Assembly (NCBI GenBank): GCA_965212115.1
Contig: CBDBUR010000001.1
Span: forward strand, 641,395 to 705,394
Reading direction: 5' to 3'
DNA length: 64,000 nt
From: Alphaproteobacteria bacterium
GTDB taxonomy: Bacteria > Pseudomonadota > Alphaproteobacteria > JAPOUT01 > G958296285
In this document: positions 2,294 to 64,000 of the stretch, in pieces
How positions within the stretch are numbered: position 1 is the first letter of the stretch
How the letters are laid out: every line of letters starts with the position of its first letter
The notes under the pieces: generated by a model
What the model was told of the DNA's origin: nothing
The model's input: the letters and a program-made list of their open reading frames with translations, nothing else
Database searches by the model: none
Translations under genes and position numbers: made by a program

Positions 2294-4093
2294 ATGGTGG
2301 ATGTGAGTCATATACGCAATTTTGCGCTGATCGCGCATATAGATCACGGCAAGTCGACTTTGGCGGATCGCCTGATACAAAAGACCGGGGGCCTCAGCGA
2401 GCGAGAGATGCGCGCGCAAGTTCTCGACAATATGGAGCTAGAGCGCGAACGCGGCATTACAATCAAAGCGCAGACGGTGCGGCTGCATTATCGTCGCGGC
2501 GATGAGGATTATATTTTGAATCTGATCGACACGCCCGGTCATGTTGATTTTTCTTATGAAGTGAGTCGCTCGCTGCAAGCGTGTGAGGGCGCACTGCTTT
2601 TGGTCGATGCGGCGCAAGGTGTTGAGGCGCAAACTTTAGCCAATAGCTGGGCGGCGTTGGAAGCTGATCTTGAGATTTTGCCGGTGATCAACAAGATCGA
2701 TCTGCCCGCGGCGGATCCAGTGATGGCGATGGCGCAAATAGAAGATGTGATCGGGCTTGAAACACACCATGCGCTAGAGATTTCGGCCAAGAGCGGACGA
2801 GGCGTTGAGGCTTTGCTCGAGGCGATGATTACGCACCTGCCGCCGCCGCAAGGGAATCGCGCGGCTTCGTTGAAAATGCTGCTGATTGATAGCTGGTATG
2901 ATTCTTATTTGGGAGTTGTGGTTTTGGTTCGGATTTTGGACGGCGTTGTGCGCAAGGGGATGAACATTCATATGATGGGCGCGGGTCAGAGCTATCTCAT
3001 TGATGAAGTTGGTGTTTTCGAGCCAAAAAAAAGACCTGTGGCCAAGCTGGGTGCTGGAGAGATCGGCTATTTCACCGCATCGATTCGCGAGGTGGCGGAC
3101 GCGAGCATTGGCGACACAATCATAGCGCACGAAGATGTGAGCAGCGGTCTTGAGGCTTTGCCTGGGTTTCGCCCGACGCAGTCGGTAGTTTTTTGCGCGC
3201 TCTACCCGGAGGACAGTTCGCGGTTTGACGATTTACGAGAAGCGATGGGTCGATTGCATTTGAACGATGCCGCGTTTCAGTTTGAGCCGGAGACGAGCGC
3301 GGCTCTGGGGCTAGGATTTCGCTGCGGCTTTTTAGGCTTGCTGCATATGGACATCATCACCGAGCGGCTTGAGCGCGAATTTGGGATTGATCTAGTCTCG
3401 ACAGCGCCCGGCGTGATCTACCGCCTGACACTGACAAATAATAATGAGCTTGAATTGCATAATCCGGCGGACATGCCGGACTGGCAGAAGATCACCAGGA
3501 TTGAAGAGCCTTGGGTGCGCGTAAATATATTAACGCCGGAGAAGAACCTGGGTGCGGCGATTTCTTTATGCGAGAACCGCCGCGGACGGCAGCATGATCT
3601 AGTTTATATGTCGACGCGAATCATGGCGATTTATGATTTGCCTTTGAGTGAGATTATTTTTAACTTTCACGATCAACTAAAATCCGTGAGTCGCGGCTTT
3701 GCGAGTTTTGACTACCAGCCTTTGGGCTATCAGGAGGGTGATTTGGTTCGTTTATCTATATTGGTCAACAATGAGCCGGTGGATGCGCTTTTTTCGATCG
3801 TGCACCGCTCGCGCGCCGAGATGCGCGGTCGTGCCATGTGCAAAACTTTAAAAGAAGAAATACCACGACATTTATTTAAGGTTCCGCTTCAAGCAGCGAT
3901 CGGAGGGCGGATTGTCGCACGCGAAACGATTCCGGCACTGCGCAAAGATGTGACAGCAAAATGTTATGGCGGTGACATTACACGCAAGCGTAAATTATTG
4001 GAAAAGCAGAAGGCCGGAAAGAAAAAGATGCGTCAGTTTGGACAGGTCGAGATTCCACATCGTGCATTTTTAGCAGTGCTGAAAGAGGACTAG
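2294..4093 (+). CDS. lepA: elongation factor 4 (translational GTPase LepA)
   Basis: 599 aa. The N-terminal G-domain is [54 protein letters not shown], and the DTPGHVDF and NKIDL GTPase motifs are present. The C-terminus (...[39 protein letters not shown]) is typical of LepA. The ATG immediately follows the pheT TAA (..GAGGcgcTAAATG), with a GAGG Shine-Dalgarno ~7 nt upstream. Confidence 0.95.
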
Positions 4094-4143: not shown

Positions 4144-7100
4144 TTAGTTTGAGGGCACCAGCGGGGTTGCGATACGACACCGGGGGATTACACAGTGGAA
4201 GTCAATATCAAAACTCGCCGCACTCAGCGTCGCGCCGCCGTTGAACACCGGAACAGCACCGCCAGTGTCAATCCCTAAAATGCCGCTCGCTGTCAATGAG
4301 GTCGATAACGACAAACCGCCCGTCACCGCAATAAATAAATTCGTCGCAGACGATGCAGACGATGAACCCGCCTCTAGCGTCAGCATCCGCGCCGAAAGCC
4401 TCACCACATCCGCGCTAAAATCTAAAGCGCCCGACGCATCCAATTCTAAATTATGCACGCCCGCTTCAATGTTCCCATTAACATCAATCATCATGGCATC
4501 CACCATCACACTCCCATTCACCACGCCCCCATCCGTAAAAGTAAAACGCGTCGCACCCGACGCGCCCAGCGTCAACGAACCCGTGCCAAAATTATACGAC
4601 GCCGTCCCACCGCTCGAACTCGACGCAAATATAATGTCCCCAAACACCTCCGTCGATAAACTTAAATCACGATTCAACGCTATCATCCAATCCCGAACCG
4701 TCAGCAATGATGAACGACGCGTCGCAATCGAAACAGCCGCAGTAGACGACAACACAAATGAATCCTCAACCGCAAAATCCTCCGTCTGATCTAAAAATAT
4801 ACTCCCCGCTGTCAATGTCGGTGAACCCGTCGCGCTAATGCCGCCCGAACCCAACTCCGTCACCGATCGACCACGCACAGTCCTCGTGACGTCAATACCC
4901 GCCGTGATCCACAGCACGCTCGACGCGCCGCTTACCGTGATCGCATCGTTGATCGTTACATCTCCACGACCCTCAATCCGCAGATTAACCGTTGACATCA
5001 CAACCTCCGAACCACTGCTATCACTATCGCTCGTCACAATAATATCGTTGCCACGAACAAAACGCTCACCGCTCGCCCCCGTGAACGATAATCCACCCGC
5101 CGCTGACAAAGTCAAATTACCCGTGCCTGTATCAATATTACGCCCGACAACCAAAACACCGCTAGACACAATCTCTACATCAATACCCGAACGAACCATC
5201 CACCCCTCAACCTCCTGCATCCCCGCACCGCTATAATTCACAGCCAGACCTGTCAAACCCCCGCGAAAAATAACAGGCACCGTTCCATCAAAAACTTCCC
5301 CCTGACTAAATGACAGCTCACCCGCCGTTATCGATAACGTCGGCGTCGTCACACCCCGACGCGTCCGCGTCGGAAAATCAAGCGCGCCCGCAGCCGTAAA
5401 AGACACAGAGCCCGAACCCACATTCAGCAGCGCACGAACCATCAAATCGCCCGACGACACAACACGCACCGCTTGATCACTACCACGCCGCGGCGCACGA
5501 CGCGATGTCATAGATACTTCAGCACCACTTAAATCAATCGACCGCGTCGACGAAAACCTCAACTCGCTGCGACTGCCCGACGCCGTTAAAGTTAAATCTC
5601 CCGCCGTTAGCAAACTCGTACCCACCGTCAAATTGCCCGTCGCAATGATCGATACCGCCAAAGTCCCCACACTCGGCTCAAGACGAGTCGTCCCATCAGA
5701 ACCAAACTCGTCCGCTGTCAAAACTACGCTCACACCACGCAACTCCGTCGCCAGCGCCGTCCCTACAGTGATAACTCCAAAATTCTCCTCAACATTCGTC
5801 ACTGCCATCCCGTCCATCATCGTCTCGACCGTCTCCGACGCGCCCGCCTCTAAAGTCAGATTGCCACGACCCGATGTCAGAGGACCATTCAATGTCAAGT
5901 TCCCTCTCGCACGTACGGTCACATTCTCACGACGACGGTGCGTCTCAAGATCCCCAGTACTCCTCAAACTGATGTTCTCTCCGCGCAATGTCCGTGAACC
6001 GCTAAATCTCACCCGATCCGCCGTCAAAACTAAATCACCTGTCGCTTCAATGTTCGTGCCAATCGTGAGATCACCTGACGCTTCAACCGTTAAAGCCTCC
6101 GCCATCACTGCGTTGCCAAGTAAATTAATGCCAGCACCGCCTAATGTCCGCGTCCCCGTCAAAACGACGTCGCCATTATTCGCCAATGTCCGCGTCCGGC
6201 GACCCACACGCGCGCGACGCGTCCCAAAACCCGCCTCCAAACGCAAATTACCCGTCCCAGAATTGAGGTGCGCCCCAATCGTCAGATCAAACGAAGTCCG
6301 TACAACAACATCACCCGCCAAACCCGTCGCTGTCGGCCCATCGCCAAACAACATGATCGTCTCCGCATCCAACTCAACCGTTTCAATGAAATTGATCGTC
6401 CCTGAATTGCTCGTCCCCGAGTCAGGGACATCATAACCCGCTTCAAGAATCAATGAACGACCATTGCTCCGTAAGCCTCGAAGATCCGTCGAAACCAAAA
6501 CAAGATTGCCGCTCACCGATAAATCCCCTGACGCACGAACCACCAAACGCGCGCCTGACACCACCATCCAAGCCCCAACCGGCTGCGACGACGACGACAA
6601 CGCGTTGAATTCAAGCTCCGCAACATTGGGCTCAAAATTAGTAAAATTAGCCGCTTCAAAAGGAAGCATCGAAATTAAGCGCAGCCCCAAGCCAGACATA
6701 ACATTCGAGACGCCATCCCCCGCTACCATGAAACTATTCGCCCTCAAAACAACCGCACGTGATCCCTGACCATCAAAACGCAGCTCCCCTGTCTCTCCCG
6801 CTACCGTGCTCGCGCCTGCCGTCAGCCCCAAAACCCCCGACGTCGATATGTCCGCATTTACTTCTAAATCGCCCTGCGCCGTGATCGTTAAGTTTTGACC
6901 AAACGGCGATGACACCGCTCCATGCGCGTCCAAAATAATATCACCGCCGCTCAATACAAGCGGCGCCGGGCCAGTGAAATTGATCAAACCGGGATTGCGA
7001 ACCTGAACTTCAACCTGCTCACCCATTTCGTTCGTCATCATCATCGCCATCGTGCCCCGTCCAGCCTCAAGCGTTAGGTCCCCTGCGCCAAGCGCAAGCG

Positions 7101-29967: not shown

Positions 29968-29987
29968 CTCTCTCGATCCCTATTTTG

Positions 29988-30016
29988 ACTATAGCCGTTA
30001 TTGATCGCCGAGTCAA
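29988..30016 (-). promoter_or_regulatory. candidate sigma70-type promoter for gene 1 in the 134-bp gap between genes 2 and 1
   Basis: On the minus strand, -35 TTGACT (plus 30011-30016), a 17-nt spacer, then -10 TATAGT (plus 29988-29993). The predicted transcription start is ~13-20 nt upstream of the GTG at 29967. The surrounding intergenic sequence is AT-rich. Confidence 0.35.
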
Positions 30017-30101
30017 AGAAAATGTAAAAACTTGAATTTTCTAAAAGACAAAAAAATGATTTCATAAAGTTCAAACTCCAAACAATTCAGCGCGCTACGA
30101 C

Positions 30102-47800: not shown

Positions 47801-50800
47801 CGGTGAGACTCAGTCCTCGATCTTCTTCATTCAACATCCAGTCGCTCACGGGCTGGGTGCCGGAGGCGGCCGTTGTCGTCAGCGTCAGCTGGCCGACGCC
47901 CGTAAGATCGAATATCCCGCCTGCAAACAAACTGCCTTGCGTGAGCGAAACCAATGCCTGCGAAGTCAGCGTCGGTATCGTGCCATTGCCAAAGATGCTG
48001 CCTTGTCTTGCTACTACGACAAATTCACCATCCGTTCCATCGTCGCCGTTGATTTTAATCGCTGCCACGCGGCTCTCGAAGCTCACATCGCCGGTCATTG
48101 CCGTCAGAGTGAGATTGACGCCATCAGACGACGCAACATGAGTGCCATTGAGAATTATCGTAGCGCCTTGCAATGCCAATGTCATGCCGCTTGAGCCCAA
48201 GAAATCAATCGCTGTGCGGCTATTCAAAGTGAGCGCGCCACCGATCGTGATGTTTGCGCCGATCTCGATTTTATTGATCGCGCTGGTCAAAGTGAGAGCA
48301 CCAAAACTTTCATCATTGATCACCGCTGCGTCCGCGACAAAAACTTTGCCGCTCGTATTGGTGAGCGTCAAATCCCGGTTGGCGGCGAGCATCCAAGAGG
48401 GATGAACTCGCTGCCCCGCCACCGCCGTTTTAAGAGTGAGCTTGGCGACAGTTCCAATACCGTCAGGATGGCTAAACTTGAACGGCGTGGTTGAAGCAAA
48501 AGCGCCGCTTTGCGTGATCGAAACACTGGGCACATTTAATCTCGGCGCGCCCGCGCCGCTGCCTGCCTCGATGGCCATCGCCTGCAATTCTAGTCCGTGC
48601 GCGCCAATCGGATTGGCCGTGCCAAAGATTCGCAAGCCATCGACACCGCCATCGAGCGTGATCACACCGCCCGCAGCGATGAGCTTCAAAACACGGCCAC
48701 CAAGATCAAAACTCGCCGCAGTAATCAAAATAGCCTGTGCAGTCAATGTGATCACCGCATCGTCGGCGATATCATCGTTAAAAGTGATCCCATGCGCTCC
48801 AGCATTGAGCACAATGCCTATCGAGCTTTCAATCCTGCCCGCGCCATCGCTCAATGCGCCGCCCTCAAGATCGCTAAGCCCAATCTCTAGCGCCCATCCC
48901 GCGCCCAAAGTCCGCGTGAGGCCGGGCAGGGTCAGCCATGACGGCAAGGCTGTGATCTTCGGGATATGGCGATCGTCTCCAGTAAAAAAACCTTCCGGCA
49001 CAATCGCGCCGAAGCTCACCCGCTCCGGCTGCGTCATCGAGAAAAACGTCTCATCCTGCGTCAAAGTGATCGACGAAGCCGTCAGCGCGAGCAGCGCGGC
49101 ACTAAAAGAGTTTGCAAAAGTGATGGCACCGATTTGCGCCGCCTGTTCACCTTCGCCCGCCGTCAGCCTGAGCACACCCGCGCCGATATCAAAGCTTGCC
49201 ATATCTAAGCTTAAATCGCGGCCTGCCTTGATCGTGATGTTCTGACCATCGTGGGTTGTCGCATTGGAGGTCAGGCTGACCATATTGCCAGACAGCACGC
49301 GCGCGCCACCGCTGAATGCGATCGTCATGCCCTTCAAAGTAAGGTTGCGAGTGATATTGATGTCGCGCCCAATCGTGATCGTCGTGTCGGTCGCGGTGAA
49401 AGAAAAAGATCGGTTGAGAACCGCCGCACCGTCCGCCGTGCTGCCATTCAACATCCATGCCTTGACGCTCTGCGCCGCGCTGCCATTTGCCTTCAGAGTC
49501 AATAAAAAAGCCTGATTCGGCAGAATGAACAGATCATCAGCAAACGTGCCGGTCTGCTCCAAGGTCAGGCTTCTGGTGGTCACGGTCGGGGCGCTGTTGC
49601 CCTCTTCGGTGAAGTTCGTTGTGGTAATCGCGCCATGCGCCGCTGTGACACGAATCAATCCGTTGGGATTATAGATCGCGTTGGTTTTGAAGTTCAACGT
49701 CGCGCCCGACAAAGTGCGCGCAGAGTTAGAGCCAAAATCGATCGAGCCAGCCTTTAAGATGATCGCGCCGCTGCCGACATCAATGTTCTGATGAGAGATG
49801 ATCTCACAGCTTGCGCACGTAATGAGCGTCAAATTCATGCCGCTGACACCCATCCAGTCGTGGAAGATTTGATTTTTTTCGGTGGTAAGCTCTAGCGCAG
49901 CGGCGGTAAATGAAAATGCAGGTGTGTCTGGATTTTCAAACGCGGCCTGCTGAAGAAGCTTCACCGTCGCGGCGGTGAGTATGCGAGTCGTCGTGCCATT
50001 TCTAGCGATTGTGCCGTTGGTGATGGCGGCATGATTGTCGCCTCTGGCCGCCATCAGCGTGAGGCGGCCCGCAGCGCCGACATTGATGTCGTTTTTAATC
50101 GTTAAATCGCTATTTGTTGCAGAGATGGTCAGATGGATATTATTGCCATTTGCGGTTATTTGATCAGCCGCCGCGATATCGACGCTGGCACCCTGCAACA
50201 AAGTGACTCCTGTGCCAAGCTCAATAGAGCTCACGCCCGTCTTCAAAGTGAGCACGCCGCGTGTTTTGATGTTCGCATTGACGGCAATCTTGCCGAGTCC
50301 CGAATTAAATATAAGATCGGCATCACCAACCTTGCGCGCTGCGTTTGGCTCGCCATCGGCGACGATTGCGCTGTCGATCGTTATGCTGCCATAGAGGCGC
50401 GTCTGGTTGGTTAAAGTCAGATCTCGATTGAAGCCGAGCATCCAATCTGCCACATTCTGATTATTTGCTGAGACTGTCAGCTCGAGCGCGCCTGCATCTC
50501 GAAAAACAAAAACTTCTGTAGAAGAAAACTTGCTCTGCTGAATCAGCTTGATCGTTGCTGCGGTCAAAATCGGAATGTCGTTCGTTGAGGGCTTGCTGTC
50601 ATTGCTCGCGGTCAAGATAGCGCCTATGGTGAGGAGCGATAAGCTGTCGCGCGCGCCCGCGCTCAGAGTGAGAACACCTCTGCCGATATTGATGTCGGCA
50701 TATAGGCTCAAATTGATTGGCCGCGCATCGCCGAGCGTGGCGATGGTCAGATCATGATTGTCGCTTGTCGTAATTTCCGCTGCAGAAATGGCGACCGAAA

Positions 50801-53567: not shown

Positions 53568-53948
53568 ACTCCTCTCCTTCTCTTTGAGATATTATTCATA
53601 CTCATCCCTCATCGGAAGATAAGTCAAGAAAGATAGGGGCACTTCTCAAAGAAGTGATTGTGTCGTTGGATGAATCAAAAAATAAAAATAGTTTGCAAAA
53701 AGGTGATCGCACTAAAGTGATTGCTATACTCTCATAGATATAATTCGATTGACTTGGCGTCGAAATTTCATACCCTTGAGATCAGCGCTATCGGAAGATT
53801 TAGAGCATAAGAAGCGATGTTCAAGCTTTGCAATATGGCTTGTTGGATAAAATGATATATTTGATACCTACAAGGAGTCAAAGGGTGGTGGCGTGAACAC
53901 ACAGCGCACCGACGCCATTCGCCCTCATTGCATTGATTTTTCCCTGGA
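53568..53948 (-). promoter_or_regulatory. AT-rich 381-bp intergenic region upstream of gene 2 with a probable promoter and ribosome-binding site
   Basis: Strong Shine-Dalgarno AAGGAGAGGAG directly upstream of the TTG at 53567. Several TTGACT / TTGCAA and TATA-like elements lie on the minus strand, but none has ideal 17-bp spacing. No ORF of 60 aa or more falls in this region. Confidence 0.3.
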
Positions 53949-56900
53949 TTAGGGCGTTGTGATGCTGCATTGGGTCATGCAGTGGAAGTCAATATCAAAA
54001 CTCGTAGCGCTCAGCGTCGCGCCGCCATTGAACATCGGAACAGCACCACCAGTGTCAATCCCTAAAATGCCGCTCGCTGTCAATGAGGTCGATAACGACA
54101 AACCGCTCGTCGCCACAACAAATAAATTAACCGCAGACGATGAACCCGCCTCGAGCGTCAGCATCCGCGCCGAAAGCCTCACCACATCCGCGCTAAAATC
54201 TAAAGCGCCCGACGCATCCAATTCTAAATTATGCACGCCCGCTTCAATGTTCCCATTAACCTCAATCATCATGGCATCCACCATCACACTCCCATTCACC
54301 ACGCTCGCATCCGTAAAAGTAAAACGCGTCGCACCCGACGCAGCCAACGTCAGCGAACCCGTGCCAAAATTATACGACGCCGTCCCAACGCTCGAACTCG
54401 ACGCAAATATAATGTCCCCAAACACCTCCGTCGATAAACTTAAATCACGATTCAACGCTATCATCCAATCTCGAACCGTCAGCAATGATGAACGACGCGT
54501 CGTAATCGAAACAGCCGCAGTAGACGACAGCACAAATGAATCCTCAACCGCAAAATCCTCCGTCTGATCTAAAAATATACTCCCCGCTGTCAATGCCGGT
54601 GAACCCGTCGCGCTAATGCCGCCCGAACCAAACTCCGTCACCGATCGACCACGCACAGTCCTCGTGACGTCAAAACCCGCCGTGATCCGCAACTCGCTCG
54701 ACGCGCCGCTCACCGTGATCGCATCGTTGATCGTGACATCTCCACGACCCTCAATCCGCAGATTAACCGATGACATCACAACCTCCGAACCACTGCTATC
54801 ACTATCGCTCGTCACAATAATATCGTTGCCACGAACAAAACGCTCACCGCTCGTCCCCGTGAACGATAATCCACCCGCCGCTGATAAAGTCAAATTACCC
54901 GTGCCTGTATCAATATTACGCCCGATAACCAAAACACCGCTAGACACAATCTCTACATCAATACCCGAACGAACCATCCACCCCTCAACCTCCTGCATCC
55001 CCGCACCGCTATAATTCACAGCCAGACCTGTCAAACCCCCGCGAAAAATAACAGGCACCGTTCCATCAAAAACTTCCCCCTGACTAAATGACAGCTCACC
55101 CGCCGTTATCGATAACGTCGGCGTCGTCACACCCCGACGCGTCCGCGTCGGAAAATCAAGCGCGCCCGCAGCCGTAAAAGACACAGAGCCCGAACCCACA
55201 TTCAGCAGCGCGCGAACCATCAAATCGCCCGACGACACAACACGCACCGCTTGATCACTACCACGCCGCGGCGCACGACGCGATGTCATAGATACTTCAG
55301 CACCACTTAAATCAATCGACCGCGTCGACGAAAACCTCAACTCGCTGCGACTGCCCGACGCCGTCAAAGTTAAATCTCCCGCCGTTAGCAAACTCGTACC
55401 CACCGTCAAATTGCCCGTCGCAATGATCAATACCGCCAAAGTCCCCACACTCGGCTCAAGACGAGTCGTCCCATCAGAACCAAACTCGTCCGCTGTCAAA
55501 ACTACGCTCACACCACGCAACTCCGTCGCCAGCGCCGTCCCTACAGTGATAACTCCAAAATTCTCCTCAACATTCGTCACAGCCATCCCGTCCATCATCG
55601 TCTCGACCGTCTCCGACGCGCCCGCCTCTAAAGTCAGATTGCCACGACCCGATGTCAGAGGACCATTCAATGTCAAGTTCCCTCTCGCACGTACGGTCAC
55701 ATTCTCACGACGACGGTGCGTCTCAAGATCCCCAGTACTCCTCAAACTGATGTTCTCTCCGCGCAATGTCCGTGAACCGCTAAATCTCACCCGATCCGCC
55801 GTCAAAACTAAATCACCTGTCGCTTCAATGTTCGTGCCAATCGTGAGATCACCTGACGCTTCAACCGTTAAAGCCTCCGCCATCACTGCGTTGCCAAGTA
55901 AATTAATGCCAGCACCGCCTAATGTCCGCGTCCCCGTCAAAACGACGTCGCCATTATTCGCCAATGTCCGCGTCCGGCGACCCACACGCGCGCGACGCGT
56001 CCCAAAACCCGCCTCCAAACGCAAATTACCCGTCCCAGAATTGAGGTGCGCCCCAATCGTCAGATCAAACGAAGTCCGTACAACAACATCACCCGCCAAA
56101 CCCGTCGCTGTCGGCCCATCGCCAAACAACATGATCGTCTCCGCATCCAACTCAACCGTTTCAATGAAATTGATCGTCCCTGAATTGCTCGTCCCCGAGT
56201 CAGGGACATCATAACCCGCTTCAAGAATCAATGAACGACCATTGCTCCGTAAGCCTCGAAGATCCGTCGAAACCAAAACAAGATTGCCGCTCACCGATAA
56301 ATCCCCTGACGCACGAACCACCAAACGCGCGCCTGACACCACCATCCAAGCCCCAACCGGCTGCGACGACGACGACAACGCGTTGAATTCAAGCTCCGCA
56401 ACATTGGGCTCAAAATTAGTAAAATTAGCCGCTTCAAAAGGAAGCATCGAAATTAAGCGCAGCCCCAAGCCAGACATAACATTCGAGACGCCATCCCCCG
56501 CTACCATGAAACTATTCGCCCTCAAAACAACCGCACGTGATCCCTGACCATCAAAACGCAGCTCCCCTGTCTCTCCCGCTACCGTGCTCGCGCCTGCCGT
56601 CAGCCCCAAAACCCCCGACGTCGATATGTCCGCATTTACTTCTAAATCGCCCTGCGCCGTGATCGTTAAGTTTTGACCAAACGGCGATGACACCGCTCCA
56701 TGCGCGTCCAAAATAATATCACCGCCGCTCAATACAAGCGGCGCCGGGCCAGTGAAATTGATCAAACCGGGATTGCGAACCTGAACTTCAACCTGCTCAC
56801 CCATTTCGTTCGTCATCATCATCGCCATCGTGCCCCGTCCAGCCTCAAGCGTTAGGTCCCCTGCGCCAAGCGCAAGCGAGCTGCCCACCACCACATTGCC

Positions 56901-59900
56901 CCGCGCGCGAACCCCTAGACCAGCGTCGCCCGAAGACGTCGCCAACGTCACCATCCAATCATGAACCGTCTGATCCGAAGTCGATGTCGTCACAAACTCT
57001 ATCTGACCAACAGACGTCGTCGTCGTCGTCTTAAATGGATTCGTCGCCGAAGCCGCCGCCCAAACACTCGACGACACCAATCGCAATGTCTGACCGCTCG
57101 ACGCCGCTGGCGATGATGTCGCCGTCAAGCTCAACGCCCCTCCAGTCAAAACCGTCAGACGCGATGAATTGAAATTGATCGCACCCGCCGACGCCGTCAG
57201 ACTTATATTGTTCGAACCCGCATTAATATCGCTGTTGACATTTACATCGCCCGTCAAAGCCGTGATCGAAACCACCCCGGCGCTCTGCTCAGGCGCTAAA
57301 TCACCCGTCAATGTCACACTCGACCCGCTCAATGTCCGCGCCCCCGTCAACGTCAACGCGCCATCATTCGCTACACTGCGCGTCCGACCGCGAACACGAA
57401 CACGACGCGTCCCAAAGCCCGCTTCCAAAGTCAGCGCTCCATCTCCTGTTAGATCAGCACCAACCGTTAGATCGCCTCGCGCTCTGATCCTCAACGCAAA
57501 ACCGCTCGGCGATGACGCCCGCGTCGAAAGCAACGTCACTTCCGAACCCTCCAGCGCGCGAACCATATCTGCGTCCACCGTCCCAAAAGTGATCGCACCC
57601 GTGCCCCCATTATAGCCCGCTTCCAAAATTAAACCCCGTCCATAGATCAAATCATTCGCTACAACAACATCGCCCGCGCCGCGAACCGCTAGCGCTGATC
57701 CCGAAGAATTCGCTCGCGATACCATCCACGCCTGAACCGCCTGCGCCGCTGTCGCCGTCGTGATGAACTCCAGCTGGCCAACATTCGTGGCAACATTAAA
57801 TGGATCAGACGCCACTGCCTCTTCCCATACCGTCGCGCGACGCAGCCCAACTCCTCGACCCTCTACACTCGGCCGACGATCAGCCGTCAGCTCCAGCGCC
57901 GAGCCCGTCAACGTCACCAGGCGATCAGGACTGAAACGAATCTGACCCGAACGCGCCGAACGTGTCGCCGTCCCTGCCGTCAAGCTCAAGGCCCCCGCGC
58001 CCGCATCAATATCGGCATGGACAAGCAAGTTGCCCCCTGCCGTGATCGTTAAATCTTGGCCAAACGGGGCCGGTGCCTTCACGCCGCCATCAACAGCTAA
58101 ACCAGCCGTCAAGGACACATCATTGCCGATCAATGTCAGCGCCGATGATCCCGTGAAATTAATCGCCCCTGACCCATCCCCCATGCCCGCCTCCAACGTC
58201 AGGTTGCGCGCAGACGCCAGCTCAATCGATACACCAACATTCACATCGCCCACGGCGCGAATAATTAAATGCTGCGCGCTCACCGCTGATACCATCCAAG
58301 GCTGAACAACTAATGCCGACGAGGACGTCGAAACCAATTCCAACGTCCCCCCAGAGGGCAACGTCACAACACCAAAGCGATTGCTCGTCACAAACACCGA
58401 CGCCTGCGCTAAGCTGATACGACCCGCCGAAAGCGACGAACCCGGCGCCGAAGAACTCAAAACCTCGCCAATGCCCGCCGTCAAAACCAAATTGCCGCGC
58501 AAAACACTCCGCCGAGAAACACGCCGAACTAGATTAAGCGCCGCGCTCACCTGCAATGTCCCCAATGCCGTGATCGTCAAAGAACGACCACTGCCCGCTT
58601 CCGCCGATGCCTCCGCAATCGTCGTCACATTCGAAGTTAACGCGATATTCGTGCCTCTCAAACTCGTCGTCCGGCTCCTCCCAAAACTAATCGCGCCGCC
58701 GGTCGTGCTCACCATCAAATTCCCCGCGCCTACATCTATGCTCGTGGCAATCGAAACAGCCCCTGTCCCTGTCACAGTCAAATCTTGGCCGCTCGGCTGA
58801 TCCAACAAATCACGCGACGAGGTCAGCGAAATCGCCGCCCCTGACAAGGACGACGCCTGATCTGACGACCACATAATCCGACCTGTTCTCCGCCGCGCCG
58901 AGGCCGAAAGCGTTAAATCGCCCGCACCCGCATTGACACGCGCCCCAATCGTCAGATCTCCCGACAAAGCCCTGATCGTAATGTCAAAATTGTTGATGCC
59001 TGCCGCTGGCGTCGCCGCTCCTTTATCTGACAGCAAATTCACATTGTTTCCCTCTAAACGGCGCGTCTCGCCAGTCGCCGCCATGAAGTTTAGCGCTCCC
59101 GTCGTGCTGCCATCACCGGCAACCAAAACCAAATCACGCCCTCCAAGCACAACGTCGCGATCCACCACCAGATCTCCGCCCGTGCGCACCGTCAAATGAC
59201 GACGCCTGGAAGTCCGACGATCGCTCACCAAAGACACCATCCACTCGTGCAGCGTCTGCGACGCGCTCGACGCCGATATAAACTCAACCCCGCCGGTGTT
59301 CAGCCTAATATTCATGAAAGGATTGCTCGCGCCAAAACCTGCCGCCTGCCTCAAACGCAACGTCCCAACCGAAAGAACCGTGTTCGAACCTTCGATCGTA
59401 TTGCTGCCGGCGCTTAAATCTAAAGTGCCGCGACCCAAATTTAAATTGGCTGACAAGGTCATCGTCCCCGACGCCACAATCGTCAAATTACCATTGCTGC
59501 CGCGACCCGGCAAAGCGCCATCCGATGTCAGAATAATATCAGCTCCGCTCAAAACCGCGCCGCTGCCAAAACTGAGAACGCCCGTCTCGCGCGTGCCTGT
59601 CCCCGCTCCAGCCTCAAGCATCAAATTGCCGCTGCCCGCATTCATATGCGTGTTCACTCGTAAACCGCGCAGCGCCACAACTCTCAACAAAGCATCGCTC
59701 GCCGAAGGCATCTCAACTGCGCCCGCTTCATCACGAACCGTGTCACCGGTTAAAGTGATGACATCCCCGGTCAAGAGACGCGCCCCTGCAAAATTGATCA
59801 CACCAATATTCCCAACACGGCGACGACCAACACGCGTCGTCCCCGTGCCTGCTGTCAAAACCAAATCTCCTGTCCCCGTATCGAGGTCAACCCCCACTTC

Positions 59901-62086
59901 AATATCGCCGAGCGCGATTACGCGCAAACGCCGACCGCTCGCAGGCGACGCCGCTCCGCCTTGCAGCTGAACATCATCTCCGCGAACCTCTACATCTCGC
60001 GCCGTGCTCAGCAAGATCGTCCCGCCTGCCGTCAAAACTACATCCCCCGTACCCGCGTTTAAGTGCGCCGCTAACGTTAAATCTCCCGAAGCCTCAACTG
60101 TCAAATCCTGATTGCTCGCCGCAGGCAGCGCTCCGCGACGCGGATCCGCGCTCAACTCTATCATCGCACCCGTCAAACGCGTCGCCGCATCCCGGCGCAG
60201 CTGCAAAACACCCATGTCGCGGCTGCCCAAACCCGCGCCCGCTGACAAAACTAGATCCCCGCTCGTCAATATATCCGTGCTCACACTCAATCCGCGACGC
60301 GCCACAACACTCACCGACTCCGTGCTCGCGCGAGATGTGCCGCCCGCATCCCCGATCAACACGATGTTCAAACCATTGAGAACCGTCTCAACAGAATCCC
60401 CCGCGCTCGAAACACCCAAATACAGCGAACCCGCATTCACCTGCGTCGTGCGTCCCACGCGCGTGTTCAAACCTCCGATCAAAGTCAAACTCCCCGTCCC
60501 CGCATTCAAATGACCCAGAACCGTCAGATCATTGCGCGCCCGAACCGTCAATGAGCGGTTCGACGCCGATGCCGGCGCACCGCGACCCGTCAACATGATC
60601 TCCCCGCCATTCACAACCCGCGTCGCGCCGCCAAATACCAATGTCGCGCCGCTCAAAGCAACCTGACCTGTCCCTGCATTGACGCTCGCATCAATCCGCA
60701 AATCGCCCGTCGCCGCAATCGTCAAATCACGACCGCCCGTCGTGATCGTCCCCGATGATACCAACGTAATGTCCGCGCCGACAAAACGATCCGCTGCCGT
60801 CTCTAGAATGATCAACCGACGCCGCGACGCCGCTCTCAACGTCAAAGACCCAGCTCCTAGGTCAATCGCCGCGTCCAAAATAATGTTGCCACTTCTAGAT
60901 TCCAGCCACAATGACCGATCCGCGACTGACCCCATCCACGCATAATAACGCTGGTTGCCTGTCGCAATCACACGAAGCTCTCCAGACACAAAACTCGCCG
61001 GCTGTTGATCTGTAAACAGCGATCCATCCTGACGCACAATAATCTGATCTGCCGCCATCACTCGATCGCCGGCTACTTCTATTGTCCGCGCGCGCAGCGA
61101 AAGAACTGAACTCATCTCATCTCCAGACATCGAACCCAAACGCAGATCCGAACTGATCTCCAGATTGGTAAACGCCCGGATCGTCAAATTATGCGACCCC
61201 GCCATGCTCACCGACGCATCCCCGTCGCTTTCAAAAATGATGTTCCTGCCCGTCAGTTCAACCGGCGCGCTCGTCGCAAACGACAGCCCTCCAACACCCA
61301 CGCTCGACGCCACACCCGCGCGCAACGTCAAAACGCCCGCGCGGCTGCGCGACGTGCTCGCGCCCGTGTGCAAAGACGCATTGACAACCAAATCCCTCTG
61401 CGCTGAAACCGTCAATGACTGACGACCCGCCCGAGGCAACGACGACGACGTCAGCATGATGTTATCGCCTGACAATTGCGTCGCCCTATTCGTCCTAAAC
61501 TGCAGCGCACCCCCTGAGGCCAACGTCAGATCCCCAGCAGCGCCGGTATCTATGTTCGTGTTGATGGTCAAATTACCCGTGGCCGTGACCGTCAAAGCCT
61601 GATTGCTCGCCGTCGGGTTAGCCCCACCGGTCAAAGTGATCACAGAACCGCTCAACACCACCGCACCATTGCGAGATGTCGTGTCAGAGGCTGTGCCGCC
61701 GCCAAAATTTAAAGCACCCCCAGCGATTAAGCTCAGATTGCCTTCCCCAGTGCCAAAACTGCCGGTCAAGGTCAAGCCGCCGCGCGCACGGATCACCGCC
61801 GTGCCCATATTATCGCTCGCTAGATCCACCGCGCCCGCCGTCAGCCTGACGACACCCCCATTCAACGTGATCGAACGCTGCGCATCAAAGTCTATCCCGC
61901 CGACCGCCGCCAATGTCAAATTGCCCGCCCGAGCATCAAGACGCCCTCGGCTGTCAAGGCCAATGCTCGTGTTCAGGAGAATATTACCTGTCGCTGTCAA
62001 CGTCACAGCGCGGCGGTTCGTCGAAATGCCGCCGCGTGAACCCGTCGTCAACGTGATGTCCGCTGCTAAAATCTCCGTCGCCGCAT
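53949..62086 (-). repeat. copy B of the ~8.2 kb near-identical direct repeat (3' end of gene 3)
   Basis: See copy A. The identity boundary on the mirror strand is at about 62086, where track ORF 61603..62223 diverges from ORF 11825..12469 after 161 identical or near-identical residues. Confidence 0.85.
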
Positions 62087-64000
62087 TGGTGAAAACTATC
62101 GTCCCAGAGGCAGACGCAGTGAAACTACCCAAACCAAAATTATTCGTCGCCGTCGTAATACGGATGTTGCGACCCGAATTCACTGCCAGACTGCGGCCAG
62201 CAACAACCATCCAAGTATTATGAACCGTCTGATCCGATGACGCGCGGCTTGTTAAACTTAATGAGCCCGTCTGCGGCAAGCCCAACGGTGCCGTCATGCC
62301 AAAAACCCCATCCTGTGACAGCGCCACGCGCAACGCCGTTATCGTCGGTACGCCGGTCGCAAAACCGTTGACAATATTACCCGCCGCGCCTTCGCCCGCT
62401 GTCAGGGTCAAGACACCCGTGCCAATATTGATCGCCGTGCCAATATTAATATCGCCGCGCGCGATCAAAGTGAGATTTGCATTGTTGACCTCTCCCGCCA
62501 CCTGCAGATCCGGCGCGACGGCGGCCGTCAAAGTAATCTCCCCAGCGCTGAGCCTCCGATCTCCAGAAAAAATTAACGCCATGCCCGCTGCCAACTCCAG
62601 ATCGTTAGCAACATCAAAATCAGCCGCAATAACCAAATTGCCAGTCGCCATAACGCTCGCTCCATCGCTCAGAATCTCCGCCGCCATCAACGTGATGTTC
62701 GCCGCTGTATTCAGCCCAACCAAGTTCGCATTCAAAGTCACCGCGCCTCCCGCAGCTCTGATCTCCAACCCGCGGCCATCAAGCATAACCATGCCTGCAA
62801 TGATCGAAATCTCCGGCGCTTCCAGAACAATCGTCTCTCCTGTGCCGCCGCCCGCGAACTCGATATTTAGAGCGCCCGCATCTAAAACAATGCTTCTAGA
62901 TGCCTGAATCGTCGAATTAGACCTCCCAGACAAATCAATCGTAAGAACAGTATCGCCATCACCAGGAACAAACACTTCATTTGTCTTCCGCCCCACGGTG
63001 AACCAAACCCCATCACTTGTTGTTGTCCCATCATAAACTTGAGGCTGCGCACCGCCATCAATCATGAAAGTCACACCCACAGGCGGCGTGCTGGGGGTAA
63101 AAGGCGTCGCATCCTGTTCCAAACGAATAAAGCGCGCGATGAAAGCCCGGGTGCCGCTAAAGGTGATCGTGCCGGTCATCGCGCCATCGCCCGCCGTCAA
63201 AACCAGACCGCCATCGCTTGCACTCGCCCCTACACTGTTCACATCGCCCAAATCGATGTCTCCTGCAACTGTCAAATCGCCCGAAGCCTCAACCGTCAAA
63301 TCCGTGTTCATCGTCGTTGTTATAGCGCCTGTCAACACGATATCGCCGCCGTCCAAAATGACCCGCTGCCTGCCTAAAACTATGCCCACTGTCCCGGTTA
63401 TCATGAGCGCGCCTGTGCCAACTTCAACATCACTATTCAGCGTCAAAGTGCCCAATGCCGTGAGCGTCAAAGCAAAATCGCCTGCTGTGAAATCGCCGCT
63501 ATTATCAAACGCACCGATCCTCACGCTATTCGTGCCGCTCGGCGTCATAACGATATTCCCGCCCGACAATATACGCGCCGCAGCCGCCGCGCCGACAATG
63601 TTGACCTCTGTCCCCGTCAAAATGAGATTGCCCGTGCCGAGCGCAATGTCGCTATCAATCGCAATCGCTGCCGCGCTCGTCAAAGTCAAAGACAGCCCGT
63701 CTTCAGACATCCAATCGTAGATGGTTTGCGCCGCGCCGGTGACCAGCTCAAGCTCATTGACCGTGCGCGTGCGCGCAGCAGGGGAAGTCGTCACAGCAGC
63801 CAACGTGAACAAATTATCCGCAAAAGCGCCATCTTGCGTGAGGCTCACACTGTCGGCGGTCAGCATCGGCGCCGTCGTGCCCGTGAGCAAAATGATGTTG
63901 CCGGTCGTGCTGCCGCTGCCCGCCAAAAGCGTCAGGGCACCGCCTGCACCAACATTGATCCCCTCAACGCCCACACTAATATTGCCGGTCGCTTCCAAAA
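53949..64000 (-). CDS. giant TpsA-family exoprotein, C-terminal >=3,349 aa (N-terminus and TPS domain lie beyond the window end); chimera of gene-2-like body and gene-1-type C-terminal cassette
   Basis: Open minus-strand frame from the window edge to a TAA at 53949-53951. The first ~640 visible residues resemble the gene 2 central repeats (IYDWMSEDGLSLTLTSAAAIAIDSDIALGTGNLILTGTEVNIVGAAAAARILSGGNIVMT versus gene 2 IVHDWMVQSGMSLSLMSAAEIVIRRDIDIGAGDLILSAAQINIEGEAQRARSLSGGNIGLT). The last ~2,710 residues are near-identical to gene 1. Ends ..FDIDFHCMTQCSITTP. Confidence 0.85.
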   Translation of the reverse strand, partial: LEATGNISVGVEGINVGAGGALTLLAGSGSTTGNIILLTGTTAPMLTADSVSLTQDGAFADNLFTLAAVTTSPAARTRTVNELELVTGAAQTIYDWMSEDGLSLTLTSAAAIAIDSDIALGTGNLILTGTEVNIVGAAAAARILSGGNIVMTPSGTNSVRIGAFDNSGDFTAGDFALTLTALGTLTLNSDVEVGTGALMITGTVGIVLGRQRVILDGGDIVLTGAITTTMNTDLTVEASGDLTVAGDIDLGDVNSVGASASDGGLVLTAGDGAMTGTITFSGTRAFIARFIRLEQDATPFTPSTPPVGVTFMIDGGAQPQVYDGTTTSDGVWFTVGRKTNEVFVPGDGDTVLTIDLSGRSNSTIQASRSIVLDAGALNIEFAGGGTGETIVLEAPEISIIAGMVMLDGRGLEIRAAGGAVTLNANLVGLNTAANITLMAAEILSDGASVMATGNLVIAADFDVANDLELAAGMALIFSGDRRLSAGEITLTAAVAPDLQVAGEVNNANLTLIARGDINIGTAINIGTGVLTLTAGEGAAGNIVNGFATGVPTITALRVALSQDGVFGMTAPLGLPQTGSLSLTSRASSDQTVHNTWMVVAGRSLAVNSGRNIRITTATNNFGLGSFTASASGTIVFTNAATEILAADITLTTGSRGGISTNRRAVTLTATGNILLNTSIGLDSRGRLDARAGNLTLAAVGGIDFDAQRSITLNGGVVRLTAGAVDLASDNMGTAVIRARGGLTLTGSFGTGEGNLSLIAGGALNFGGGTASDTTSRNGAVVLSGSVITLTGGANPTASNQALTVTATGNLTINTNIDTGAAGDLTLASGGALQFRTNRATQLSGDNIMLTSSSLPRAGRQSLTVSAQRDLVVNASLHTGASTSRSRAGVLTLRAGVASSVGVGGLSFATSAPVELTGRNIIFESDGDASVSMAGSHNLTIRAFTNLEISSDLRLGSMSGDEMSSVLSLRARTIEVAGDRVMAADQIIVRQDGSLFTDQQPASFVSGELRVIATGNQRYYAWMGSVADRSLWLESRSGNIILDAAIDLGAGSLTLRAASRRRLIILETAADRFVGADITLVSSGTITTGGRDLTIAATGDLRIDASVNAGTGQVALSGATLVFGGATRVVNGGEIMLTGRGAPASASNRSLTVRARNDLTVLGHLNAGTGSLTLIGGLNTRVGRTTQVNAGSLYLGVSSAGDSVETVLNGLNIVLIGDAGGTSRASTESVSVVARRGLSVSTDILTSGDLVLSAGAGLGSRDMGVLQLRRDAATRLTGAMIELSADPRRGALPAASNQDLTVEASGDLTLAAHLNAGTGDVVLTAGGTILLSTARDVEVRGDDVQLQGGAASPASGRRLRVIALGDIEVGVDLDTGTGDLVLTAGTGTTRVGRRRVGNIGVINFAGARLLTGDVITLTGDTVRDEAGAVEMPSASDALLRVVALRGLRVNTHMNAGSGNLMLEAGAGTGTRETGVLSFGSGAVLSGADIILTSDGALPGRGSNGNLTIVASGTMTLSANLNLGRGTLDLSAGSNTIEGSNTVLSVGTLRLRQAAGFGASNPFMNIRLNTGGVEFISASSASQTLHEWMVSLVSDRRTSRRRHLTVRTGGDLVVDRDVVLGGRDLVLVAGDGSTTGALNFMAATGETRRLEGNNVNLLSDKGAATPAAGINNFDITIRALSGDLTIGARVNAGAGDLTLSASARRRTGRIMWSSDQASSLSGAAISLTSSRDLLDQPSGQDLTVTGTGAVSIATSIDVGAGNLMVSTTGGAISFGRSRTTSLRGTNIALTSNVTTIAEASAEAGSGRSLTITALGTLQVSAALNLVRRVSRRSVLRGNLVLTAGIGEVLSSSAPGSSLSAGRISLAQASVFVTSNRFGVVTLPSGGTLELVSTSSSALVVQPWMVSAVSAQHLIIRAVGDVNVGVSIELASARNLTLEAGMGDGSGAINFTGSSALTLIGNDVSLTAGLAVDGGVKAPAPFGQDLTITAGGNLLVHADIDAGAGALSLTAGTATRSARSGQIRFSPDRLVTLTGSALELTADRRPSVEGRGVGLRRATVWEEAVASDPFNVATNVGQLEFITTATAAQAVQAWMVSRANSSGSALAVRGAGDVVVANDLIYGRGLILEAGYNGGTGAITFGTVDADMVRALEGSEVTLLSTRASSPSGFALRIRARGDLTVGADLTGDGALTLEAGFGTRRVRVRGRTRSVANDGALTLTGARTLSGSSVTLTGDLAPEQSAGVVSITALTGDVNVNSDINAGSNNISLTASAGAINFNSSRLTVLTGGALSLTATSSPAASSGQTLRLVSSSVWAAASATNPFKTTTTTSVGQIEFVTTSTSDQTVHDWMVTLATSSGDAGLGVRARGNVVVGSSLALGAGDLTLEAGRGTMAMMMTNEMGEQVEVQVRNPGLINFTGPAPLVLSGGDIILDAHGAVSSPFGQNLTITAQGDLEVNADISTSGVLGLTAGASTVAGETGELRFDGQGSRAVVLRANSFMVAGDGVSNVMSGLGLRLISMLPFEAANFTNFEPNVAELEFNALSSSSQPVGAWMVVSGARLVVRASGDLSVSGNLVLVSTDLRGLRSNGRSLILEAGYDVPDSGTSNSGTINFIETVELDAETIMLFGDGPTATGLAGDVVVRTSFDLTIGAHLNSGTGNLRLEAGFGTRRARVGRRTRTLANNGDVVLTGTRTLGGAGINLLGNAVMAEALTVEASGDLTIGTNIEATGDLVLTADRVRFSGSRTLRGENISLRSTGDLETHRRRENVTVRARGNLTLNGPLTSGRGNLTLEAGASETVETMMDGMAVTNVEENFGVITVGTALATELRGVSVVLTADEFGSDGTTRLEPSVGTLAVLIIATGNLTVGTSLLTAGDLTLTASGSRSELRFSSTRSIDLSGAEVSMTSRRAPRRGSDQAVRVVSSGDLMVRALLNVGSGSVSFTAAGALDFPTRTRRGVTTPTLSITAGELSFSQGEVFDGTVPVIFRGGLTGLAVNYSGAGMQEVEGWMVRSGIDVEIVSSGVLVIGRNIDTGTGNLTLSAAGGLSFTGTSGERFVRGNDIIVTSDSDSSGSEVVMSSVNLRIEGRGDVTINDAITVSGASSELRITAGFDVTRTVRGRSVTEFGSGGISATGSPALTAGSIFLDQTEDFAVEDSFVLSSTAAVSITTRRSSLLTVRDWMIALNRDLSLSTEVFGDIIFASSSSVGTASYNFGTGSLTLAASGATRFTFTDASVVNGSVMVDAMMIEVNGNIEAGVHNLELDASGALDFSADVVRLSARMLTLEAGSSSAVNLFVVATSGLSLSTSLTASGILGIDTGGAVPMFNGGATLSATSFDIDFHCMTQCSITTP

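What the first reader, a model, noticed from the sequence alone, without database searches (positions are those of the whole stretch)
4144..64000. Tandem array of three giant (>=10 kb to 25.8 kb) TpsA-family exoprotein genes occupying ~92% of the window
Three head-to-tail minus-strand paralogs of 8,607 aa, 7,821 aa and at least 3,349 aa. The two complete genes carry an unmistakable N-terminal TPS secretion domain followed by thousands of residues of beta-helix-like repeats. Genes of this size are rare in bacteria, and three in a row with intact frames indicates strong selection. They are wedged directly against core housekeeping genes (pheT-lepA). No IS element, integrase or tRNA flanks them, so this does not look like a classic mobile island. 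The architecture has a shared secretion domain, lineage-specific repeat bodies and an exchangeable C-terminal module. That suggests a variable surface adhesin or exoprotein system rather than a single FhaB-like adhesin.
Basis: partly seen in the sequence, partly recalled or inferred. Interest (0 to 1): 0.8.

Follow-up and report, generated by a model that had tools for sequence, protein, structure and literature searches.

The report
Tandem giant two-partner-secretion fibre genes
Three huge neighbouring genes (8,607, 7,821 and at least 3,349 codons) in an uncultured small-genome alphaproteobacterium encode secreted rod-shaped beta-helix proteins of the known two-partner secretion class, built from a repeat module that no domain database recognises and probably held on the cell surface by a small C-terminal cysteine loop.

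Summary
Three head-to-tail minus-strand ORFs fill about 93% of the window: A 4144-29967, B 30102-53567, and C 53949 to the window end.

A and B start with a signal peptide and a TPS secretion domain (Pfam PF05860, E about 1e-17). By sequence this domain is closest to EtpA, HxuA and HMW1.

The "exchangeable C-terminal module" is not supported. There is no VENN motif, toxin domain or immunity ORF. All complete family members end in a conserved Cys-x(3-8)-Cys tail like the HxuA/HMW1 disulfide anchor.

A and C share an 8.1-kb tract at 99.1% DNA identity with a sharp boundary, which indicates gene conversion. The position next to lepA is syntenic in a relative, so this is not a mobile island. No TpsB lies in the window; a relative has one 5.7 kb downstream of its giant gene.

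The publicly called product of C (4,937 aa) lacks a TPS domain and is probably interrupted.

Verdict: an ordinary kind of system in an unusual, lineage-specific variant.

The parts
113..4093 (+). Flanking housekeeping genes pheT (113-2293, 5'-truncated by the window) and lepA (2294-4093). They converge on gene A.
   Evidence: TIGR00472 E 6e-164 and TIGR01393 E 7e-272. The same neighbourhood occurs in relatives L007 and L008.
4144..29967 (-). Gene A, a giant TpsA-type exoprotein of 8,607 aa (8,604 aa if the TTG at 29958 is the start).
   Evidence: ORF. TPS domain. Beta-helix tiles.
28783..29958 (-). Gene A signal peptide plus TPS secretion domain and its conserved extension up to the LLLDP motif (about residues 4-395).
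   Evidence: PF05860 at residues 38-280, E 5.9e-17. PDB sequence hits EtpA 1.3e-40, HxuA 2.3e-24, HMW1 1e-19. Family alignment is invariant up to LLLDP. Hydrophobic h-region sits just before PQGGRITQG.
19468..26970 (-). Internal super-repeat in gene A. Residues about 1000-2250 and about 2250-3500 are collinear copies at 38-55% identity, with a third weaker copy downstream.
   Evidence: Tile-against-tile BLAST. Alignment A4 of the recurring 'W...WF' element.
4193..12307 (-). 3' tract of gene A (residues about 5887-8592) that is 99.1% identical in DNA to gene C.
   Evidence: blastn: 8,115 bp, 63 mismatches, 1 gap. Mismatches cluster towards the 3' end. Amino-acid identity steps from 20-48% to 96-100% within 50 residues.
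4177..4194 (-). Gene A C-terminal Cys loop, C-VIPR-C, 11 residues before the stop.
   Evidence: Translation. The tail is conserved across the family. The HxuA analogue is C-x5-C.
29968..30101 (-). A-B intergenic spacer (134 bp) with a promoter-like site (TTGACT-17-TATAGT, 30016-29988) and a GGAG-like ribosome-binding site.
   Evidence: These are consensus matches only.
30102..53567 (-). Gene B, a giant TpsA-type exoprotein of 7,821 aa. TPS domain at 52761-53474. Cys loop C-QNTQ-C at 30120-30137.
   Evidence: ORF. PF05860 E 1.1e-17. Identical to public protein P0139. Coordinates checked.
53568..53948 (-). B-C intergenic spacer (381 bp, AT-rich) with a promoter-like site (53881-53852). It holds no plausible small gene.
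   Evidence: longest ORF 44 aa.
53949..64000 (-). Gene C, 3' part (at least 3,349 aa, open at the window end). Cys loop C-MTQ-C at 53967-53981. The tract 53980-62085 matches gene A.
   Evidence: The public product P0142 is 4,937 aa and has no TPS domain.

Best explanation
The window holds a lineage-specific tandem expansion of type Vb (two-partner secretion) passenger genes in an uncultured alphaproteobacterium. The related complete chromosome is 1.61 Mb; other contigs carrying family members reach 1.69-1.9 Mb.

Shown:
- A and B carry an N-terminal hydrophobic signal sequence and a TPS domain of the EtpA/HxuA/HMW1 type.
- Two sampled stretches of the remaining about 8,000 residues fold as a right-handed parallel beta-helix. 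Coils are about 21-22 residues long.
- The shaft is organised in about 25 irregular 160-250-aa modules. Each module is marked by a short helix at an L-x-L-x7-Q-x-V-x-x-W-M motif.
- Each protein ends in a Cys-x3-4-Cys tail that is conserved across the whole family.

Inferred mechanism: Sec exports the protein to the periplasm. The TPS domain docks on the POTRA domains of a TpsB barrel encoded elsewhere in the genome. The chain is threaded out N-terminus first and folds outside the cell into a rod roughly 180 nm long (about 8,200 aa / 22 per coil x 0.48 nm). The C-terminal disulfide loop, as in HMW1 and HxuA, stays in or below the TpsB pore and tethers the fibre to the cell.

On this topology the conserved C-terminal third, which is homogenised between A and C by gene conversion, is the cell-proximal stalk. 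The divergent N-proximal part is the distal, interaction-exposed end.

The likely function is long-range adhesion to a host, prey or particle surface. That function is inference only.
For: - TPS domain. By sequence it is closest to the solved EtpA, HxuA and HMW1 TPS domains.
- Signal sequence.
- Module motif.
- C-terminal Cys pair: found in 48 of 79 family members of at least 900 aa. Many of the 31 without it end in R/H-rich tails that look like frameshift products. HxuA carries its only mature Cys pair, C-x5-C, near its C-terminus. Reviews state that this disulfide loop anchors HMW1/HxuA in the TpsB pore or periplasm (PMC5422565; PMC8151025).
- TpsB: a gene with POTRA_2 and ShlB domains lies 5.7 kb downstream of a family member in relative L006.
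- Gene conversion.
- Synteny.
- Further paralogues on the same 711-kb contig: P0140 (7,703 aa), P0005 and P0007.
Against: - No TpsB gene is in the window, and none could be located in this genome.
- No expression data exist.
- The Cys loops here are shorter (3-4 residues) and closer to the end than in HxuA. Other close Cys pairs occur inside A, so a Cys loop alone need not block translocation.
- Only two tiles (about 15% of A) were modelled, using alignments made mostly of paralogues.
- Adhesion is inferred from analogy; no ligand-binding domain was found.
- The product of gene C as publicly called lacks a TPS domain, so C may not be secreted at all.
Confidence: 0.72

Rival explanations
1. Contact-dependent inhibition or polymorphic-toxin system. 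On this reading the genes are CdiA-like, delivering exchangeable C-terminal toxins, with immunity genes downstream. This is the sense of the reader's 'exchangeable C-terminal module'.
For: Giant TpsA proteins in tandem are typical of CDI loci. The last 10-15 residues do differ among A, B and C.
Against: No VENN or other pretoxin motif. No Pfam or NCBIfam domain anywhere after the TPS domain. The beta-helix repeats run up to the last roughly 20 residues, and the tail is a family-wide conserved Cys loop. No ORF longer than 44 aa lies in the 381-bp and 134-bp spacers, and lepA directly follows A. The TPS domain matches EtpA, HxuA and HMW1, and no CdiA or FHA chain passes E 1e-3.
Confidence: 0.03
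2. The proteins are released rather than tethered: soluble or matrix-forming fibres, or cytolysin-like proteins. Here the terminal Cys pair would be only a structural cap of the beta-helix.
For: EtpA, the closest TPS domain by sequence, is a secreted adhesin. Small Cys loops generally pass through type V translocators (PMC8151025). A has nine other close Cys pairs.
Against: The terminal pair is the only Cys feature conserved across the family, including distant members with a different tail (...C-x6-8-C-Q). This matches the position of the HxuA/HMW1 anchor.
Confidence: 0.2
3. The array is a recombination-based variation system. TPS-less or broken copies such as C would serve as donor cassettes that rewrite multi-kb segments of the expressed genes by gene conversion.
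For: An 8.1-kb tract at 99.1% identity between otherwise roughly 35%-identical paralogues, with a boundary sharper than 50 residues. The public product of C lacks a TPS domain. Tandem arrays recur in relatives. The body diverges far faster than the TPS domain or LepA.
Against: Only one conversion tract is seen. It homogenises the stalk rather than diversifying the distal part. Breaks in C and in relatives may be assembly errors (3x-7x coverage contigs) or plain pseudogenisation. No population data are available.
Confidence: 0.1
4. The giant frames are an assembly artefact or decaying pseudogenes with no function.
For: A long near-identical repeat can cause mis-joins. The relative's syntenic gene is split into three ORFs. 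C appears interrupted.
Against: A and B have uninterrupted frames of 25.8 and 23.5 kb. The two copies of the shared tract differ at 63 positions, with 34 synonymous and 41 non-synonymous codon changes, and they have different flanks. An independent assembly reproduces C at 99.2% identity. Conserved N- and C-terminal features are intact.
Confidence: 0.04

Closest known systems
HMW1/HMW2 adhesins and HxuA of Haemophilus influenzae (TpsA proteins with a C-terminal disulfide anchor)
   Different: These proteins are 5-9 times longer (HxuA about 900 aa; HMW1 about 1,500 aa, my own knowledge). No sequence similarity exists beyond the TPS domain. No adjacent tpsB and no HMW1C-type glycosyltransferase gene. 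NXS/T sequons are not enriched. The Cys loop is shorter and nearer the end.
EtpA of enterotoxigenic E. coli
   Different: EtpA is about 1,560 aa (PDB chain length), is encoded in an etpBAC operon with its transporter and glycosyltransferase (PMC8151025), and is released. The body repeats are unrelated in sequence.
FHA/FhaB of Bordetella and the Fil_haemagg repeat family
   Different: No match to the Fil_haemagg Pfam repeats. No FHA chain passes E 1e-3 for the TPS domain. No large C-terminal prodomain is evident.
Giant bacterial surface proteins, such as the Chlorochromatium epibiont giant proteins and the Omnitrophota giant genes
   Same: Very large repetitive proteins in bacteria with close cell-cell associations (bioRxiv 10.64898/2026.03.19.712371; bioRxiv 10.1101/2023.11.21.568195).
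   Different: The Omnitrophota genes reach 85,804 aa, are multidomain and are linked to a secretion system with type II/type IV secretion homologues. The genes here are much smaller, nearly domain-free beta-helices secreted by the two-partner route.

Membership tests
TpsA (type Vb / two-partner secretion passenger) | N-terminal TPS secretion domain (PF05860 / TIGR01901) | tested here: met
   A: E 5.9e-17, 62.9 bits against a cut-off of 33.5. B: E 1.1e-17. TIGR01901 matches both. For C this is not testable in the window, and its public product P0142 has no TPS domain.
TpsA (type Vb / two-partner secretion passenger) | Sec signal peptide ahead of the TPS domain | tested here: met
   By inspection and hydropathy only. 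There is a basic n-region, a 15-aa window with mean Kyte-Doolittle hydropathy of 1.76 (A) or 2.15 (B), and VGA/VMA just before PQGGRITQG. No dedicated predictor was run.
TpsA (type Vb / two-partner secretion passenger) | Extended right-handed beta-helical passenger | tested here: met
TpsA (type Vb / two-partner secretion passenger) | Cognate TpsB transporter (POTRA domains plus ShlB/FhaC-type barrel) in the genome | not testable with these tools
   None in the window. The rest of the 711-kb contig could not be fetched. A relative has a POTRA_2 plus ShlB gene 5.7 kb downstream of a family member.
FHA-like (Fil_haemagg / Fil_haemagg_2 repeat proteins) | PF05594 / PF13332 repeats in the body | tested here: not met
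   No Pfam hit after the TPS domain in A, B or full-length C at E <= 0.01. No NCBIfam hit.
CdiA / polymorphic toxin | Pretoxin (VENN or similar) motif and a C-terminal toxin domain | tested here: not met
   No VENN or (L/V)YVN motif. No Pfam domain at the C-termini. Repeats and the conserved Cys tail run to the end.
CdiA / polymorphic toxin | Immunity gene immediately downstream | tested here: not met
   Downstream spacers are 50, 134 and 381 bp. The longest ORF is 44 aa.
HMW1/HxuA-type anchored TpsA subfamily | TPS domain of the HMW1/HxuA/EtpA subtype | tested here: met
   The only PDB sequence hits are EtpA, HxuA and HMW1.
HMW1/HxuA-type anchored TpsA subfamily | Conserved C-terminal Cys pair forming the anchoring disulfide loop | tested here: inconclusive
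   The Cys pair is present and conserved family-wide. It is comparable to HxuA's C-x5-C. Disulfide formation and tethering cannot be tested in silico.
HMW1/HxuA-type anchored TpsA subfamily | Operon with tpsB, and for HMW1/EtpA an HMW1C-type N-glycosyltransferase | tested here: not met
   There is no other gene between or beside A, B and C in the window. NXS/T sequons are at the shuffle expectation.

The most novel reading that the evidence does not exclude
The array would be a recombination-driven variable fibre system of a small-genome, probably host- or prey-attached alphaproteobacterial lineage. At least four giant paralogues would together take up about 5% of a genome of roughly 1.6 Mb, if it is as small as its relatives'. 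They would share a gene-conversion-homogenised, nearly lysine-free, cell-anchored stalk. Their distal shafts would diversify, with TPS-less copies such as C acting as sequence donors. The shaft is built from a beta-helix module (the QxVxxWM unit) that is a new sequence family.
Probability: 0.15. Interest if true: 0.6.

Novelty: new variant of a known kind. Interest (0 to 1): 0.4.

Why it matters
Two-partner secretion is usually studied with passengers of 1,000-4,000 aa from pathogens. These genes show the same N-terminal secretion signal and the same C-terminal anchor motif framing shafts twice that size, in an uncultured lineage whose related chromosome is 1.61 Mb. At least four such genes sit on one 711-kb contig.

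If the proteins are made, they would be fibres of roughly 0.2 micrometre and a major item in the cell's budget. That points to an attached lifestyle.

The repeat module is absent from Pfam and NCBIfam and could be added as a new family. The sharply bounded 8.1-kb conversion tract and the extreme lysine avoidance are concrete, testable oddities.

None of this overturns current understanding. It extends a known system.

Tried and rejected
- Fetching the source contig failed. Exact look-ups of lepA, P0001, P0005 and P0142 were 'not on record'. The 5' end of C, the position of P0140/P0005/P0007 and the TpsB of this genome therefore remain unseen.
- phmmer and profile searches of body pieces against PDB sequences found nothing, even at E <= 1.
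- Whole-protein self-BLAST was uninformative and was replaced by tile-against-tile BLAST. No single repeat period exists at the module level.
- The word-indexed protein search found only 14 body homologues. The exhaustive search found 171.
- A JGI metagenome scan with two TPS-derived peptide patterns found no relative. The GTDB genome scan found only one close locus.
- The weak Pfam G8 hit (E 3.4e-4, below the cut-off) was dismissed as beta-helix background.
- N-glycosylation sequon enrichment of the HMW1/EtpA type was tested and is absent.
- The CDI reading was rejected.
Full report
**The observation**

The window contains three minus-strand ORFs arranged head to tail:
- A: 4144-29967, 8,607 aa.
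- B: 30102-53567, 7,821 aa.
- C: 53949-63998, 3,349 aa, still open at the window edge.

Together they code for about 93% of the 64 kb. The upstream flank is pheT (cut by the window start) followed by lepA. Both are confirmed by NCBIfam equivalog models. lepA converges on A with 50 bp between the stops. The window has no tRNA and no Rfam family.

The annotated GTG start of A is probably three codons too early. A TTG at 29958 sits behind a GGAG-rich site in the same arrangement as the TTG start of B.

B is identical to a public protein (P0139), and the window part of C is the tail of another (P0142, 4,937 aa). A protein from an independent assembly is 99.2% identical to C over 4,935 aa. The long frames are therefore not peculiar to this assembly.

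**Secretion signal**

A and B each have a basic-hydrophobic leader followed by a TPS domain:
- PF05860: E 5.9e-17 for A and 1.1e-17 for B, about twice the gathering score.
- TIGR01901 also matches both.

Against all PDB sequences, the first 400 residues of A match only EtpA (1.3e-40), HxuA (2.3e-24) and HMW1 (1e-19). No FHA, ShlA/HpmA or CdiA chain passes E 1e-3. The conserved N-terminal unit runs to an invariant LLLDP at about residue 395.

**The body**

After the TPS domain, nothing in Pfam or NCBIfam matches A, B or the full public product of C. No PDB sequence matches either, even with a profile at E <= 1.

Composition is rich in G/A/S/T/L/N/D. Aliphatic and glycine positions recur at 7, 14-15 and 21-22 residues, as expected for a three-sided beta-helix coil of about 22 residues.

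At a larger scale the shaft is built from irregular 160-250-aa modules. Each carries the motif L-x-L-x7-Q-x-V-x-x-W-M-x4-R-x-L-x-L. A has about 25 copies, B has 26 and the window part of C has 9. In A, blocks of five or six modules plus a 'W...WF' element form a super-repeat of about 1,250 aa.

Two tiles were modelled with AlphaFold2:
- A 7080-7930, using an alignment of paralogous tiles and the few database homologues: mean pLDDT 78.9, pTM 0.66. It is all short strands, with a short helix exactly at each WM motif.
- A 2061-2480: mean pLDDT 74.1.

At 22 residues and 0.48 nm per coil, A would be a rod of roughly 180 nm. This length is an inference.

**The C-terminus**

The 'exchangeable C-terminal module' idea fails on four counts:
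- There is no VENN-type motif.
- There is no toxin domain.
- No ORF above 44 aa lies in the 134-bp and 381-bp spacers.
- lepA directly follows A.

Instead the very end is the most conserved feature after the TPS domain. A ends ...FDIDFH-C-VIPR-C-..., B ends ...FDVDFP-C-QNTQ-C-... and C ends ...FDIDFH-C-MTQ-C-.... Among 79 family members of at least 900 aa, 48 end with a Cys-x(2-9)-Cys tail. Many of the 31 without it have R/H-rich tails typical of frameshifted calls. Distant members use a different but analogous tail...C-x6-8-C-Q.

All other cysteines of A also come in close pairs. This is the pattern described for type V passengers (PMC8151025).

HxuA carries its only mature Cys pair, C-x5-C, about 25 residues from its end. 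Reviews state that in HMW1 and HxuA this disulfide loop stays in the periplasm or TpsB pore and tethers the protein to the cell (PMC5422565 citing Buscher 2006; PMC8151025).

Together with the TPS subtype, this makes surface tethering the most likely fate of these proteins. It remains an inference. The loops here are shorter, and disulfide formation cannot be tested in silico.

**Relationships among the three genes**

- A and B share 58% identity over the first 545 aa but only about 32% over the collinear body.
- A and C are old paralogues, with 20-48% identity up to A residue about 5880. They then become 96-100% identical within fewer than 50 residues.
- At the DNA level, A 4193-12307 and C 53980-62085 are 99.1% identical over 8,115 bp. 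The 63 mismatches are concentrated near the 3' end. They comprise 34 synonymous and 41 non-synonymous codon changes.

This is the signature of a recent gene conversion (or segmental replacement) of the 3' third, not of a collapsed assembly. If the C-terminus is the anchored end, the homogenised part is the cell-proximal stalk and the divergent part is distal.

**Gene C is doubtful**

The public product of C (P0142) starts 1,588 aa beyond the window and has no TPS domain. Its start aligns with about residue 3000 of B. The 99.2%-identical homologue P0283 reads a further 1,393 aa upstream, also without reaching a TPS domain.

C is therefore probably interrupted in this genome. Alternatively the break is an error. 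The source contig could not be fetched to decide.

**Family and genome context**

An exhaustive HMMER search with a 1,078-position body profile found only 171 proteins at E <= 1e-3 among 1.84 billion representatives. Many are 2,000-7,800 aa. Fifty of the 157 family sequences examined (listing plus the hits) carry the same TPS domain. JGI metagenomes gave no relative with the two family-specific TPS peptide patterns tried. The GTDB species set gave one close locus, in an unnamed alphaproteobacterial MAG with a 1.61-Mb chromosome.

LepA of the window is 83% identical to that MAG's LepA. It is only about 68% identical to LepA of named genera such as Tepidamorphus, Amphiplicatus, Parvularcula and Parvibaculum.

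The window's own contig is 711 kb. It also encodes a fourth giant paralogue (P0140, 7,703 aa, with a TPS domain) and two TPS proteins of about 800 aa that also end in a Cys pair.

In the 1.61-Mb relative the order infC-rpmI-rplT-pheS-pheT-lepA is followed, convergently, by a single giant gene of this family. That gene is split into three ORFs of 911 (TPS), 3,544 and 3,303 aa, about 23.4 kb in all. A second relative shows the same flank. The locus is therefore ancestral, not a mobile island, and the array in the window is a lineage-specific expansion.

The syntenic gene's body is only 26-30% identical to A, B or C. Its TPS domain keeps 59-65% identity and LepA 83%. The shaft evolves very fast.

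Tandem arrays also occur in another relative. No TpsB lies in the window or in the 10 kb upstream of the relative's gene. A POTRA_2 plus ShlB gene does lie 5.7 kb downstream of a family member in relative L006, with a DsbA-domain gene two genes further on.

**Verdict**

The finding is real. Its core interpretation, giant TpsA-type beta-helical exoproteins in tandem, is right. The CDI-like 'exchangeable C-terminus' is wrong.

These proteins work like HMW1/HxuA-type anchored TpsA adhesins scaled up five- to nine-fold. They are built from a repeat module unknown to the domain databases and are expanded to at least four copies on one 711-kb contig. I rate this a new variant of a known kind with moderate interest.

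The unexplained points are:
- the extreme lysine avoidance (3 Lys in the last 3,633 residues of A, against 4.3% Lys in pheT and lepA);
- the state of gene C;
- the whereabouts of the transporter.

Noticed in passing
window 4147-15044 (A residues 4975-8607) and 53952-63998 (C): Extreme lysine avoidance. A has 3 Lys in its last 3,633 residues, including a Lys-free run of 1,933 residues. The window part of C has 4 Lys in 3,349 aa. Several family members have 0.1-0.5% Lys, while Arg is 3.4-8%. pheT and lepA have 4.3% Lys. The same stretches show strong strand skew (GC skew about -0.3, AT skew about +0.2). No explanation was tested.
   Followed up: partly
window 4193-12307 versus 53980-62085: An 8,115-bp tract is 99.1% identical between genes A and C. 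It has a sharp 5' boundary, and the mismatches are graded towards the 3' end. This indicates recent gene conversion between otherwise roughly 35%-identical paralogues.
   Followed up: yes
window 19468-26970 (A residues about 1000-3500): A super-repeat of about 1,250 aa lies inside gene A at 38-55% identity, with a weaker third copy around residues 4385-4750. Each copy contains a 'GDILW...WF' element.
   Followed up: partly
gene A throughout (Cys at residues 552/555, 733/736, 971/979, 1160/1165, 2365/2375, 3553/3560, 4253/4259, 4673/4681, 4890/4893, 8592/8597): All but one of the 21 cysteines in A occur in pairs 2-9 residues apart. B has only five Cys: two close pairs (1251/1254 and the terminal 7811/7816) and one single. 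The window part of C has only the terminal pair.
   Followed up: partly
beyond window position 64000 (public proteins P0142, P0283): The public product of gene C is 4,937 aa and has no TPS domain. A 99.2%-identical protein from another assembly reads 1,393 aa further upstream. C is therefore probably interrupted about 4.8 kb outside the window.
   Followed up: partly
L001 6956-9040; L006 22564-23114: Disulfide-handling genes lie near family members in relatives. A DsbD-type gene lies 1 kb upstream of the giant gene in L001. A DsbA-domain gene lies two genes after the TpsB in L006. This may be coincidence.
   Followed up: no
L001 12736-12769; L007 21720-21792: The syntenic giant gene of the 1.61-Mb relative is broken into three ORFs (911, 3,544 and 3,303 aa). 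The first break involves a frame change. Whether this is pseudogenisation or sequencing error is undecided.
   Followed up: partly
L004 1-20969: Another relative (a contig at 4x coverage) also carries at least two of these genes head to tail, in many fragments. Tandem arrangement is therefore recurrent in the lineage.
   Followed up: no
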